The position numbers were made by a program, and so were the translations under genes. A DNA stretch of 63,018 nt, filler included, from Octopus bimaculoides (taxonomy: Eukaryota), in assembly GCF_001194135.2 (NCBI RefSeq). It is 4 parts of 4 records of this genome, joined end to end, with 100 filler letters (N's around TTAATTAATTAA, not from the genome) between each part and the next. Parts side by side here need not be neighbours in the genome. Positions count along the whole stretch, not along the records: positions 1 to 24,156 come from NC_068993.1; positions 24,257 to 49,457 come from NC_069002.1; positions 49,558 to 55,257 come from NC_069005.1; positions 55,358 to 63,018 come from NC_068983.1. One strand, written 5' to 3'. The notes under the pieces are model-generated. The model ran no database searches, was not told where the DNA came from, and was given only the letters and a program-made list of their open reading frames with translations. Below, piece by piece: positions 14,770 through 57,925 of this stretch. Positions within the stretch are counted from its first letter, which is position 1. Every line of letters begins with the position of its first letter.

Positions 14770-14946
14770 ATCGAAAAATAACTTAGGAATGAGAACTCAT
14801 GTTCCAAATTTCCCCAAGACACCTGATGAAGGCTGGAGGGTATATCAGCCGAAACGTTGTGTTAACAACAAACAAGATGAGAACAAATATCCATCAAATG
14901 TAAATAATATAAATAATATAATTCCTCATCTCTTAAATATAGAACT
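14770..14946 (+). mobile_element. Short non-coding element carrying a hammerhead ribozyme (putative non-autonomous Penelope-like)
   Basis: About 175-bp non-coding segment between an AAT tract and unrelated sequence; contains the hammerhead motif below. Confidence 0.55.
14818..14863 (+). ncRNA. Minimal type-I hammerhead ribozyme, intact core
   Basis: GACAC CTGATGA A GGCTG gagggtatat CAGCC GAAAC GTT GTGTT: stem I 5 bp, stem II 5 bp, loopless palindromic stem III (ACGT), GUU cleavage triplet. Confidence 0.85.
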
Positions 14947-15077
14947 GGATTCCATCCCTGGTTTAAGGACTCAAGGAAGGAATAACGGAAGAAAGGAAAG
15001 GAGGAAGGAAGAATGCGTGAGTGGGCACATATACAAACAAGCTCCATACATGTGTGTGTTTGTATGTGTGCATATAT

Positions 15078-15420
15078 AACAAAGTAAAATCCCCCTTTGG
15101 TCACGAATGAGCATGGGATTGAACCTAGAAAGTTCCTTTCCGGGTCACAAATCCGGGCAAGGTTGTTTATGGAAGATCATCATTCGCCCATGCATACCAG
15201 CCTCCTCTCTTCACGTTACCAAGGTTATCCAAGGGAAAGGCAAAGGGGCCGATACAGCTTGGCACCTGTGACGTCGCAACTCATTTCTACAGCTGCATGA
15301 ATTGGAGCAACGTGAAATAAAGTGTCTTGCTCAAGAACACAACATGCAACCCGGTCAGGGAATCGAACGCGCAAACTTCACGACTGTAATCCCGACGCTC
15401 TTATCACTGAGCCACACGCC
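15078..15420 (-). mobile_element. SINE family C, full length
   Basis: Reverse-complement match to 7673-7943, plus an extended 3' tail. Confidence 0.88.
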
Positions 15421-16228
15421 CTCACACACACAAATATTTGTGTATGTATATATTTGTGTGGCGGGGTATAGATATGTGTGTGTGCGGATGTGTATACATA
15501 CATATATATACACACATACACATCATTACTAGGGCCACACTAACCGCCTAATTATTCCCACCACCACCAACACCACCATTATGACTGCTTGCGCCACCAC
15601 CATCGCCACCATTAATTCAACCATAAACATTGCCCCTATCACATCATCACTAGCTTCCATATCACCCAGTGCCCCCTCCTTCAATGCAATCTCTATCACC
15701 ACTAACCCCATACCCTTACCCCCACCCCACCCCCATCAACCCCCACTCTCGTCGCAACTACCACCATGATGTCATCCCCACCATCAATACCACCCTCGCT
15801 ATTTTTTCCAACACCACCACTCCTGTCGGAAAGGTAAATCCCCTTCAGATGTGTCACGTGCTGTAATCATTCACCTGTGACAGAAGCCAACCAACCAAAG
15901 GCCAACAGAAGCAGCACTATTGGTCTTTGACTGCAGGTGGGGCTCTTGTTTAACAGGGTGCCCACCCGGATTTTACAAAACAACAACACTAATTAAATAT
16001 TTTGTGATGAGTGCTGAGTGTGGATAAAATATAAGTTTGTGTGTGTGTGTGTGTGTATTTGTGCGTGTATATGCGTGCGCGCGCGGGCATACGTATACCG
16101 GGTTTTGTCGGATATATTTGTCACTGTGGGTCTATGTATGTATTTATGTGTGGGTTTATATGTTTATATATATAAGCATAAATACTTAGTATATATATGT
16201 GTATGTGTATATATATATATATATGTAT

Positions 16229-16287
<59 letters not shown>

Positions 16288-16599
16288 GTATATGTATTGA
16301 TATATATATGCATACATACATAGATACGTACATACAACCATCCAAACACATATAGAATGGTCTGGTGCAAGAAGCTGGGTAAATGTGTGTGTCTGTGTTT
16401 GTACGTCTAAATATACGTGCGGTTCGTTTCGTGATATCGTGAGCGCAAGTTCATTTCTACTGCACGGTACAACAGGCAAGGGTGATTCAGTTCCACATGG
16501 CTCAGAACGCGTCCTCTTCCTCAGATCTAAGGCGCTACCTAAAGGTGGGGGCACATTCTCTACCCATAGACCTTTAAGTAAGAATTAAGCTTGATTGTA

Positions 16600-17911
16600 A
16601 CTAAATGCGAATACAAAACCTCTTTTCGTTGTTGTCATTCATTCTGGTCATGTTATTACTGCAAAAACTTCCTCTATTTTGACGATCTCTTGTGCGCAGC
16701 TTCGGAAATGCCTCTCATCAAGCTCCAATAGTAATCTGCCATGATGTTTGAGTGCCATCGACCTTGGTAGCGTTCTGCCATTACTTTTGCATTATGATGA
16801 AAGCGTTCACCTTGTTCTTTGCTAACAACACTCAGGTTTTCTGGGAACTCACCCTAGTAACTCTGTAAATAGTGCAATTTAATGCTCATTCCTTATCCAA
16901 GTGCTTACAAACTCAAGATCAGTTCCTCCACAATCTCTTGATAGTTGTCAGCTTTCTTGTTCCCAAGGAAATTCCACACCACACCAAAGTAGCCATTCCA
17001 AGCTCTAGCCTCCTCCGCCGCATTCATTGTTACAACAAAATGTGGATCTCTGAAGAGTGTTCTTATATGAAATCCATCAAATATTCCTGCCATCTTCTCG
17101 TTACTGAGACTTGGAAAGGCTATACATATATATCTGAATCAGTTTCCACTGTAATCAAGAGCTTTGATGAGTTGCTTCATCACACCAAGTTTCAACACAG
17201 GTTTTGCAAACTTTGTGGGAAGCCCAGGTTTTGTTCTGGTCTCCAGGTATTAATTTAGAATAAATAAGACACATCTTCTTGACAAAGTCATCAATATTGC
17301 GCCTTTGAGTTTGTGGAGTGAAGGTTCGACAGTCGTAACAGAAGATATCGGGATATTTACGACACGTTCTTCTTTTTGATATTGTATCCATACTCAGATC
17401 ACTGTCGTTCAGTTCACACCTAAGAAGAGAAAGGGTTTTAAAGCAAACCTCAACTTGAATAAGTAACCATTGTTTACCAACCTAATGTGGCAGTCCCATT
17501 CGGGGCGACACACAGATCGTGTGTCGTATAACCAGCTGGGGACGATGCCTCCTGGGGCTAAACAACAGTAGCCTTCGCCCTAAACGGGACTGCCACATTA
17601 GGCTGGCAAATACTCGTTACTTTAAATTGCTGCTACTGAATATCTTTCGTTGAGCGATTTAGGAACAGCAATGTTTCTTTTTATCAACTTGAATATATTA
17701 TTCAAAATTAGCATGACAATCTAGCAAAAATTCCCACAAATAAAGTGTAAAGTTAACTTTTGATATGCACCAGGTAAATAAAGGTATATACCGTTGACAC
17801 AAAAATGTGATATGATAGAGCAAATCTGAGGTCGTTTTTGGAATCAGCAGCCAAAAATTAGTCTAAAAGATTTTATGCCAGAAAATAAAAGTGTTATTTT
17901 ATTGACCAATG
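16600..17911 (-). mobile_element. Internally deleted Chapaev3-like (CMC superfamily) DNA transposon with transposase pseudogene
   Basis: N-terminus CRKYPDIFCYDC..DQNKTWASHKVCKTC; C-terminus LGVMKQLIKALD..AGIFDG..NFLGNKKADNY..MSIKLHYL..EQGERFH..RYQGRW..ADYYW; terminus cattggtcaataaaaat (CAC-type) flanked by TTA. Confidence 0.75.
17472..17612. mobile_element. Foldback MITE with one partly deleted arm, nested in the Chapaev-like element
   Basis: TIR ccaacctaatgtggcagtccc / gggactgccacattaggctgg; interior homologous to 23167-23394. Confidence 0.8.
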
Positions 17912-19097
17912 TAATAGTTAGCGACAGCAAAAGCGAAAAACTTCTTAGGCAAAACGAGTAACAAACAAATTGATATCTGTCCGGAAATACTGTTTAATGT
18001 GTCCTAATATCAGACGACATTGCTTGATTTGATGGAGATTAAGCTGATGTTCTAATAACTCAAAAGATTACGAAAAAGTTTCATCATTGATTCGAGAGAA
18101 AGAAGGTTAACATGCGTAACAAAATTCAAAACAAGCAGCGGGCAGCAATTCTGAAGTAAATTTTGTGGACGTTTAATATTTATAACACTGACTCCTATGA
18201 GCAGGTTATTAGAACTTCAGTAGTCGAAGGTAGTTGGAGGATTTCTTTCATCTGCTTAATTCAGACAAAGAAGAGCAAGGCTTCTTACCATTTCCAGGCT
18301 CCCCATCAATAATGAGAGAAAAAGTCGAAAGTTTTCTCAAATCGATGATTTGACTCGAATACTTACAAGAAGTGAAATCTCCGCTAAAGGTACTCAAAGA
18401 CGATGAAGTGTCATTAGACAGGGTTATGGATCAAGTCTAAAGAACAGCTTCCATATACTTTACGTCTGACGAATTTTGGTCGACTCCAGGCTACGATAGG
18501 AGCCGCTGGCCCCCACGTACCGTACAATGGTCTCAGGACTGAATCTAAAACGTCCATTCCTTTTTCATATTCTCTCGAAGTGTGTGTGTGTGTGCGCGTG
18601 CGTGCGAGAGAGAGTATATACATGTATATACACATAAGCATAATATACAAGTACATGATTACATACATATAATAGCGAACGCATATATTTATAATTATAT
18701 ATCGATATAGATGGGGAGTGTGTGTGTGTCTGTATATGCATGTATGCACATTGAAGTGTGTGTAACACATGTTCGAATGTGCTTAAGTGTGTATGATATG
18801 TGTTTCAGTGCATATAATACTCCTGTTAAAAGTACGTGGTGTGTATAAACACGTGTGCAACAAAAGCGGCCCCATTGTGCAGTGTCAGGGTTAATAGGAC
18901 CAGAGCCAGCTTTAATTGCCAGAAAACAAAAGCTCTGTCTGCCAATATCTATAAACGACCAGCGCCGCCTTCAATGAATAAAAGACTTTCTATGGCTGCC
19001 ACCACTTCACTTCCCCAATCACTTTCCTTCCAACCATCACCACCACCACCAACCCGTCCACACAACACCACCAGTCTCAACCATTCTCTGTCTTTAG

Positions 19098-19143
19098 ACC
19101 GGCTCGCACACTCTCTTCACCAATGCGCCGTCATTACCACCAG
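19098..19143 (+). other. Candidate 46-nt exon (or 3' end of a longer first exon) of an unidentified gene
   Basis: Acceptor ttctctgtctttAG and consensus donor cag|GTAAGC in non-repetitive, GC-richer sequence; no homology recognised. Confidence 0.3.
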
Positions 19144-56995: not shown

Positions 56996-57040
<45 letters not shown>

Positions 57041-57114
57041 ACACATATACACACGCATACACACACAGCCACACACACACACACACATAAACACACACAA
57101 TTTACGTGTGTATA

Positions 57115-57335
57115 TGTTCTTTTATTCTTTTACTTGTTTCAGCAATCTGACTGCCGCCATGCTGGAGCACAGCCTCGAAAGATGTTAGTCGAAGAAATCG
57201 ACCCCAGGACTTATTCTCTGTACGTCTAGTACTTATTCTATCGGCCTCTTTTGTCAAACCGCTAAGTTACGCTGACGTAAACACACCAACACCGGTCGTC
57301 AAGCGATGGTGGGACGAACACAGACACAAAGACAC
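57115..57335 (-). mobile_element. SINE family A, 3' half
   Basis: ttcttttacttgtttcag..gccatgctggagcac..gaccccaggacttattc..ccgctaagttacg..caagcgatggtggg. Confidence 0.9.
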
Positions 57336-57386
57336 ACACACACATACATACATGCATACATACATACATATATACATACATACATG

Positions 57387-57418
<32 letters not shown>

Positions 57419-57589
57419 CTTATATATATATAAATATATNNNNNNNNNNNNNNNNNNNNNNNNNNNNNNNNNNNNNNNNNNNNNNNNNNNNNNNNNNNNN
57501 NNNNNNNNNNNNNNNNNNNNNNNNNNNNNNNNNNNNNNNNNNNNNNNNNNNNNNNNNNNNNNNNNNNNTATATATATGTATGTATATAT

Positions 57590-57844
57590 ATATGAAATAG
57601 AGTGAAGTGGAGGAATAAAAATAGATGTGAGATATGCAGGGATATTGCATCTATAGATCCATTGTTTAGGCAGAATGGTGTACATTCTGCCTAAACAATG
57701 GATCTATAGATGCAATATCCCTGCATATCTCACATCTATTTTTAGAATGGTGTACATTCTGCCTAAACAATGGATCTATAGATGCAATATCCCTGCATAT
57801 CTCACATCTATTTTTATTCCTCCACTTCACTCTCTATTTCATAT
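57590..57844. repeat. 88-bp-arm palindrome with a 72-bp tandem duplication of the loop and right arm
   Basis: Left arm 57590-57677, loop gtgta, right arm from 57683; agaatggtgtacattctg recurs at 57672 and 57744. Confidence 0.93.
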
Positions 57845-57877
57845 CTTATATCTATTGCTTAACCATTTTCTCACACC

Positions 57878-57925
57878 GTCTCCGATGAAGCGGTATATAA
57901 AATATCCCGGAAACAGCTGTAAGAC
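57878..57925 (+). ncRNA. Minimal type-I hammerhead ribozyme (one core substitution) in a short dispersed element (about 57853-57980)
   Basis: GTCT CcGATGA A GcGGTAT ataaa ATATCCC g GAAAC AGCT GTA AGAC; palindromic stem III ACAGCTGT; GUA triplet; stem I GTCT/AGAC. Confidence 0.8.

What the first reader, a model, noticed from the sequence alone, without database searches (positions are those of the whole stretch)
14818..57925. At least five hammerhead motifs from three or more families in 63 kb
The motifs at 14818(+), 36723(+), 42166(+), 48628(-) and 57878(+) share the core plus a palindromic stem III of different sequence and length (ACGT, ACAGCTGT twice, AATCGATT, ACATCGATGT). Roughly one per 13 kb would extrapolate to a very large genomic ribozyme load if this window is typical. 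That would imply a diversified system of short self-cleaving retroelements in this lineage, able to cut host pre-mRNA when intronic and in sense orientation. Whether this is already catalogued for octopus cannot be determined here.
Basis: partly seen in the sequence, partly recalled or inferred. Interest (0 to 1): 0.75.

Follow-up and report, generated by a model that had tools for sequence, protein, structure and literature searches.

The report
Penelope-type hammerhead relics, one young retrozyme
The five self-cutting-RNA motifs are real but mostly broken leftovers of common repeats, some being cut-off ends of Penelope-type jumping genes and some likely their small protein-free parasites, a known kind of genome clutter; a sixth, intact motif that was missed belongs to a very recently spread family.

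Summary
All five motifs are present, and descriptor counts beat shuffles. Each is one copy of a dispersed family with 378-2,708 search candidates. A (14823+) is the pseudo-LTR of a Penelope/Poseidon-type element with RT and GIY-YIG. B (57882+) and E (36723+) share their ribozyme type with Hydra-clade elements of this genome. C and D look like old 305-345-nt non-coding, retrozyme-like units. Only A of the five is fully intact. A sixth, intact motif at 20259(-) was missed: family F, a 361-nt unit with 97-100% identical copies. Sixty random 10-kb stretches gave 24-30 remnants in 522 kb, about 10^5 genome-wide, so the extrapolation roughly holds for remnants. Exact motif counts are far lower: A 1,997, B/E 1,091, F 374, D 13, within published loads for frog, coelacanth and mussel. 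RNA reads show no pile-up of ends at the cut sites, so host pre-mRNA cutting is unsupported. Verdict: new members of known kinds (Penelope-like hammerheads, animal retrozymes). I found no octopus description in the papers searched, but this scan has noted similar families before on other DNA. Worth keeping: A's tRNA-like head, and F's two stem-III forms.

The parts
14731..14947 (+). Family A copy: (AAT)n plus about 180 bp of a Penelope/Poseidon-type pseudo-LTR, 5'-truncated (lacks the family's tRNA-like head)
   Evidence: ORF link in L121 and L123
14818..14863 (+). Intact minimal type I hammerhead: 5-bp stem I, core CTGATGA plus extra A, GGCTG/CAGCC stem II, ACGT palindrome; predicted cut after 14858
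   Evidence: 1,997 exact matches genome-wide, control 0
20137..20432 (-).
20224..20265 (-). Intact type I hammerhead with U3-A8 core (TTGACAA), 6-bp stem I, 4-bp stem II, ACTAGT palindrome; predicted cut after 20230
   Evidence: 374 exact matches, control 0
36676..36823 (+). Family E copy, broken at the core: forward part 36722-36823 (C3A, 5' strand of stem I lost) preceded by an inverted 5' piece at 36676-36713
42085..42261 (+). Family C copy, old (77% to nearest relative): core intact at 42170, stem I reduced to 2 bp; family has octamer- and TATA-like words upstream (motif names recalled) and a period near 300-306 nt in 3 of 30 loci
48584..48920 (-). Family D copy, about one 330-345-nt unit; hammerhead 48628-48675 with stems I and II broken relative to the family
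   Evidence: 13 exact motifs genome-wide
57590..58144 (+). Family B copy: fold-back piece 57590-57742, hammerhead 57878-57925 (family-wide U4C core and an extra base before GAAA; stem II mismatched in this copy), then tail
   Evidence: same ribozyme type downstream of Hydra-clade ORFs

Best explanation
The six motifs are single, mostly decayed copies of dispersed repeat families: A is the ribozyme-bearing end of a Penelope/Poseidon-type element, B and E are likely ends of Hydra-clade elements, and C, D and F are likely non-coding retrozyme units copied by Penelope-type enzymes. Shown here: family membership, copy numbers, ORF linkage for A, inverted 5' pieces, two 3' end points, AT-rich landing sites, and longer-than-unit permuted copies for D and F. 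Inferred from published work on these elements: the endonuclease nicks AT-rich DNA, the reverse transcriptase starts inside the RNA just downstream of the hammerhead and usually stops early or folds back, so the ribozyme is the part most often deposited. Inferred: two hammerheads pair through the stem-III palindrome to cut tandem transcripts into units, which for D and F would be circularised and then copied round the circle. A lone genomic copy inside a host transcript is predicted to be silent.
For: A: inverted piece, pLTR, RT/GIY-YIG ORF and pLTR in L123; Pfam RVT_1 E=4.8e-10; inverted upstream piece in 17 of 30 loci; two 3' ends about 32 nt apart in reads and contigs, the PLE 'tail' of PMC8557442 and PMC11167929. 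B/E: 7 of 16 regions fetched downstream of Hydra-type RT hits carry the same ribozyme type 0.7-0.9 kb after the ORF; the ORFs show RWK, DKT and CxCX5C motifs; stem II differs compensatorily between subfamilies. D: direct repeats with period 323-358 in 9 of 30 loci, inverted pieces in 12 of 30. F: exact 361-nt period, copies up to 424 nt with variable 5' ends, circular fold z = -8.5. PMC11167929 reports that ribozyme mutants insert normally and that no RNA-seq reads end at the cut site.
Against: No autonomous partner was found for C, D or F; 1 of 25 F loci abuts a broken PLE fragment, which chance can explain. The ORF-linked B-type ribozymes belong to sister subfamilies (about 67% to window B over 270 nt). 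L122, the one B locus with an ORF, is a composite with gaps and a second element in between. C shows an inverted piece in only 1 of 30 loci and F in 2 of 25. No circular RNA or cleavage was shown. RNA support for F is low (366-474 reads in about 12 million per run) and the unit junction also exists in DNA.
Confidence: 0.82

Rival explanations
1. All six families are simply truncated pseudo-LTRs of protein-coding Penelope-like elements; no separate retrozyme class is present.
For: Holds for A and probably B/E. bioRxiv 2026.07.22.740005 argues that animal retrozymes derive from pLTRs. Young full-length elements are likely collapsed into gaps in this assembly (many N runs).
Against: In F and D the sequence downstream of the ribozyme reappears upstream at a fixed period with no ORF between. 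Of 25 F loci, none reads from the unit into an ORF apart from one abutting broken fragment; about half of the ends fall in gaps.
Confidence: 0.1
2. The families form a large load of active ribozymes that cut host pre-mRNA when intronic and in sense orientation.
For: Thousands of exact motifs. A and F sequences occur in RNA-seq reads, 77-81% of A reads running on into unrelated flanks. 39 of the first 100 listed exact F motifs carry a 5-nt duplication that lengthens stem III.
Against: No place with many read starts or ends on A or F (weak test: unstranded, fragmented libraries, species match not established). Four of the five reported copies are damaged or non-canonical. Stem III is not formed in predicted monomer folds, the long F variant included (pair probability <=0.01). 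Single minimal hammerheads did not cleave in PMC4209133.
Confidence: 0.06
3. Chance look-alikes in AT-rich, repeat-rich DNA.
For: The loosest descriptor is reached by 4 of 100 shuffles; folding z-scores of the six isolated motifs are unremarkable (-1.4 to +0.6).
Against: Every motif sits at the conserved centre of a repeat family whose majority sequence has complementary stems and a palindromic stem III; reversed-pattern controls give 0 against 1,997, 1,091, 374 and 13.
Confidence: 0.02

Closest known systems
Minimal type I hammerheads (min-HHR) in pLTRs of metazoan Penelope-like elements (Cervera and de la Pena 2014, PMC4209133; parts 1-2 of 4 read)
   Same: Extra base between A9 and G10.1, palindromic stem III, U3-A8 variant, many sequence families per genome, mostly single truncated copies, pairs on opposite strands 100-700 bp apart, thousands per genome (about 9,000 in Xenopus tropicalis, about 4,000 in coelacanth).
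   Different: B/E keep a U4C core and an extra base before GAAA across subfamilies; A carries a tRNA-like head in its pLTR. No cephalopod in the parts read.
Penelope/Poseidon element PAc of the green anole (Frangieh et al. 2024, PMC11167929; passages read)
   Same: Two RT start points 30-40 nt apart (tail), AT-rich targets, no RNA-seq ends at the ribozyme site.
   Different: In A the ribozyme lies upstream of the apparent start codon, not overlapping it, and 26 of 30 head-bearing copies begin at a tRNA-like segment.
Hydra-clade PLEs, including Hydra-1_Obim (Craig et al. 2021, PMC8557442; passages, section 11 and supplement searches)
   Same: RWK, DKT and CxCX5C motifs, (TA)n targets, hammerhead after the ORF.
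   Different: The published Hydra-1_Obim ribozyme matches none of the six families by eye, and the B/E motif was not found in that supplement (a line break could hide it).
Animal non-LTR retrozymes (Cervera and de la Pena 2020, PMC7229834, passages; Li et al. bioRxiv 2026.07.22.740005, parts 1-2 of 5)
   Same: 300-390-nt non-coding units, type I hammerhead with 6-bp stem I and 4-bp stem II (D, F), strongly self-paired circular fold, GC near 40-47%.
   Different: Here mostly dispersed copies of 1-1.3 units with PLE-like ends; no long arrays seen (gaps may hide them); abundant circles not shown.
Schistosoma SINE-like hammerhead repeats (as reviewed in PMC6765202; passage read)
   Same: Polymerase III-type promoter followed by a hammerhead, as proposed for A.
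   Different: In A the promoter-like head is embedded in the pLTR of a protein-coding element present in the same genome.

Membership tests
Type I (minimal) hammerhead ribozyme | Conserved core boxes with stems I and II | tested here: met
   Met in window copies A and F and in the majority sequences of A, C, D, F. Not met in window copies E and D; B and C are partly broken.
Type I (minimal) hammerhead ribozyme | Palindromic stem III allowing dimer folding | tested here: met
   All six palindromic; dimer folding itself was not computed.
Type I (minimal) hammerhead ribozyme | Self-cleavage at the predicted site | not testable with these tools
   No read-end pile-up, but those libraries are a weak test.
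Type I (minimal) hammerhead ribozyme | Match to Rfam hammerhead models | tested here: inconclusive
   0 at gathering score; family D loci match HH9 below threshold, best 30.6 bits, E=6e-4.
Penelope/Poseidon PLE (family A) | RT plus C-terminal GIY-YIG ORF flanked by pLTRs that hold the hammerhead | tested here: met
   L123 and L121; RVT_1 hit. The endonuclease piece gave no Pfam GIY-YIG hit and is read from motifs; clade by motif, no tree built.
Penelope/Poseidon PLE (family A) | Inverted 5' piece and 30-40-bp tail | tested here: met
   17 of 30 loci inverted; inverted copies mostly stop at query 140-154 of 181; ends at 1733/1734 and 1765.
Hydra-clade PLE (families B/E) | RWK, DKT, CxCX5C motifs in the ORF that carries this ribozyme type | tested here: met
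   for sister subfamilies.
Hydra-clade PLE (families B/E) | Window's own subfamily joined to an ORF | tested here: inconclusive
   L122 is composite and gapped.
Animal non-LTR retrozyme (C, D, F) | Short non-coding unit repeated head to tail with a type I hammerhead | tested here: met
   F 361 nt, D 323-358 nt in 9 of 30 loci; C weak, 3 of 30.
Animal non-LTR retrozyme (C, D, F) | Two consecutive units each with a complete hammerhead | tested here: inconclusive
   Same-strand pairs in L105 (D), L086 (C), L348 and L350 (F), some separated by gaps or degraded.
Animal non-LTR retrozyme (C, D, F) | Abundant circular RNA | tested here: inconclusive
   F reads are few; the junction also occurs in genomic copies.
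tRNA-derived SINE (head of family A) | tRNA homology | tested here: inconclusive
   A- and B-box-like words 32 nt apart by eye (box consensus recalled); ARAGORN 0 of 13 loci; Rfam no tRNA hit.
tRNA-derived SINE (head of family A) | Copies begin at the head | tested here: met
   26 of 30 head-bearing loci do not reach the ORF; 29 of 30 continue into the ribozyme tail.
tRNA-derived SINE (head of family A) | Polymerase III transcription | not testable with these tools
   Needs start-site or polymerase III occupancy data.

The most novel reading that the evidence does not exclude
This genome holds a recently active Penelope-dependent ecosystem with two unusual members. One is a protein-coding Penelope element whose pseudo-LTR has captured a tRNA-like polymerase III promoter and sheds SINE-like ribozyme copies. 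The other is a 361-nt retrozyme still spreading through RNA circles in two forms that differ by a 5-nt duplication of the stem-III palindrome, which would tune monomer versus dimer cleavage, and whose rod-like RNA is A-to-I edited.
Probability: 0.3. Interest if true: 0.6.

Novelty: new member of a known kind. Interest (0 to 1): 0.3.

Why it matters
As given, the finding extends a known pattern, thousands of Penelope-type hammerheads per animal genome, to an apparently uncatalogued set of families, and sets its scale: about 10^5 remnants but only thousands of exact motifs. Its practical value is family F: near-identical copies, a natural pair of stem-III variants and PLE-like ends make it a clean test of whether animal retrozymes are copied from circles by Penelope enzymes and of what the ribozyme is for, both still open in the papers read.

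Tried and rejected
Rfam at gathering score: nothing; at loose E-values mostly microsatellite-driven miRNA hits. tRNA detection on the A head failed. The repeat finder was swamped by microsatellites and N runs. No RNA holder on record was listed by the run index; raw runs came in by species label only. Search for an intact young PLE partner of F or D: the long 'open frames' were mostly N gaps; one D copy lies 0.7 kb from an RT fragment on the opposite strand (L302), not taken as a link. Three hits of cluster 32 were dropped from the random count because they read like LINE coding sequence (judged by eye). The candidate at 58400(+) has weak stems and matched no other locus; not counted. A>G excess among genomic F copies, 11 vs 4 T>C site changes in 49 copies, is only borderline. 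My script for 5' extents miscounted two loci, so the BLAST result is used. Lunse et al. (PMC5785218) is not held; only its title was seen. Repbase and Dfam were not available, and bioRxiv supplements are closed, so an existing library entry for these families is not excluded. Paper searches; none returned an octopus hammerhead or retrozyme study beyond the Hydra-1_Obim supplement row.
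Full report
Observation. The window is a pack of four stretches; three were placed, on contigs C13, C22 and C3 of a 2.34-Gb genome. All five motifs and their palindromes are present. A descriptor beats local shuffles when stems are required (strict 1 vs 0.0; relaxed core with stem I, 6 vs 1.0, 100 shuffles) but barely when they are not (13 vs 6.85). Allowing the U3-A8 core described in PMC4209133 revealed a sixth motif at 20259(-); strict count 2 vs 0.0 in 40 shuffles.

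Families. Each motif was used to search the genome; first-look candidates, which are lower bounds, were A 2,323, B 2,708, C 662, D 378, E 1,012, F 1,742. I examined the best 30 loci of each (25 for F), so divergence and structure counts lean to copies like the window's. Majority sequences of all families have complementary stems and palindromic stem III with unrelated sequences, which settles that these are hammerhead-type motifs and not chance.

Family A. About 180 bp follow an (AAT)n tract and a 75-bp head with A- and B-box-like words. Two of 30 loci run upstream into an RT and GIY-YIG frame; L123 shows an inverted piece, pLTR, ORF and pLTR with a unit of about 2.6 kb; Pfam RVT_1 E=4.8e-10. 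Seventeen of 30 loci have an inverted upstream piece, usually lacking the last 30-40 nt, and reads and contigs end at two points 32 nt apart: the PLE tail. Searching with the head alone, 29 of 30 loci continue into the ribozyme and 26 of 30 do not reach the ORF. This pile-up fits a transcript starting at the head, or fold-back at the short palindrome there; I cannot separate the two, and tRNA finders do not recognise the head. The window copy lacks the head and has an intact ribozyme.

Families B and E. They share stem III and flanks, land in (TA)n or (CA)n, and have variable, often inverted 5' ends (12 and 8 of 30). An RT piece near one B copy retrieved Hydra-type ORFs (motifs as in PMC8557442 section 11). 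Seven of 16 downstream regions held a ribozyme of this type, from sister subfamilies, so the link is firm for the group and indirect for the window's own subfamilies. U4C and an extra base before GAAA are inherited features, with compensatory stem II differences between subfamilies. The window E copy is split at the core by an inversion; the B copy has a mismatched stem II. The published Hydra-1_Obim ribozyme is different.

Families C, D, F. No ORF link was found. D has canonical 6-bp and 4-bp stems and a 323-358-nt period in 9 of 30 loci; C shows a period near 300-306 in 3 of 30. Both are old; D has 13 exact motifs left. F is very young: top hits 97-100% identical on many contigs, an exact 361-nt period, copies that start at variable points and exceed one unit, 3' ends clustering at two similar AT-rich words, and a rod-like circular fold 8.5 SD below 60 shuffles (D -1.8 to -4.1, C -1.3 and -2.4). 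Of 374 exact motifs, 39 of the first 100 listed carry a 5-nt duplication in stem III, present in both young and older subfamilies. Predicted monomer folds do not form stem III in either form.

Load. Sixty random 10-kb stretches (521,750 non-N bases, large contigs only) gave 12 profile hits of A-E at 7 loci, reversed control 0. With seeds from further families found in flanks, 33 remnants at 26 loci; I dropped 3 as LINE-like, leaving 30 at 23 loci, 6 of them supported mainly by their own paired copy. That is 1 per 17-22 kb, about 10^5 genome-wide, against 6 in 57,978 bases in the window (about twofold higher; Poisson p near 0.05, hand calculation). By eye 12 of the 30 keep both core boxes, a figure inflated by self-seeding; the strict descriptor passed 1 hit in the sample. 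Exact motif counts are A 1,997, B/E group 1,091, F 374, D 13, controls 0; C was not counted. PMC4209133 gives about 9,000 for Xenopus and 4,000 for coelacanth, PMC7229834 about 5,000 for mussel, so the intact load is not exceptional.

RNA. Three raw, apparently unstranded RNA-seq runs added by species label hold 6,529-9,502 A reads, 77-81% running into unlike flanks, and 366-474 F reads; neither lay shows a place where many molecules begin or end. This is a weak test but agrees with PMC11167929. Five A>G differences in the F rod occur in roughly 12-51% of reads and not in the contig run, and in 0-2 of 41-47 genomic copies: possible editing, unproven without matched DNA.

Mechanism and verdict. 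Shown: repeat families, ORF linkage for A, PLE-type insertion marks, permuted longer-than-unit copies for D and F. Inferred: target-primed copying by PLE proteins from an internal start just 3' of the ribozyme; dimer-dependent cutting of tandem transcripts; circular templates for D and F; silence of lone copies. These are new members of two known kinds. Earlier notes of this scan reach similar readings on other DNA; they are not independent support, and one pointed me to the Hydra clade, which I then tested. Interest 0.3.

Noticed in passing
window 20224-20265 (-): Sixth, intact U3-A8 hammerhead in a very young 361-nt retrozyme-like family; 39 of 100 listed exact motifs carry a 5-nt stem-III duplication.
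   Followed up: yes
L271:1597, 1601, 1604, 1679, 1682: A>G differences in RNA reads within the predicted rod of family F, absent from the contig run; possible A-to-I editing.
   Followed up: partly
L019:1411-1485; L123:4097-4144: tRNA-like head inside the pLTR of family A, at which most head-bearing short copies begin, often at a fold-back palindrome.
   Followed up: partly
L044:1885, L032:2139, L213:7305, L126:2200, L316:6249, L121:6769, L122:7033, L165:2380, L201:4512 and 9422, L215:9079: About ten further hammerhead-like families in flanks and random stretches, several as inverted pairs or near PLE ORFs.
   Followed up: partly
window 23167-23394: Inverted repeat with 107-nt arms, 93% complementary, 14 nt apart; no hammerhead matched there.
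   Followed up: no
window 58390-58440 (+): Weak hammerhead-like candidate (intact first core box, 6-nt palindrome, poor stems), no relatives among fetched loci.
   Followed up: partly
window 6615-6998 (-): Frame with a YIG motif resembling a decayed PLE endonuclease piece (by eye).
   Followed up: no
window 54959-55257 (-): Frame resembling a Tc1/mariner transposase fragment (motif recalled, not tested).
   Followed up: no
L264, upstream of the F copy: F copy directly abuts a broken PLE endonuclease fragment in the same orientation; insertion or template switch.
   Followed up: partly
family C loci, e.g. L063-L090: Octamer-like and TATA-like words about 110 and 60 bp upstream of the ribozyme core; family D has a similar pair (motif names recalled).
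   Followed up: no
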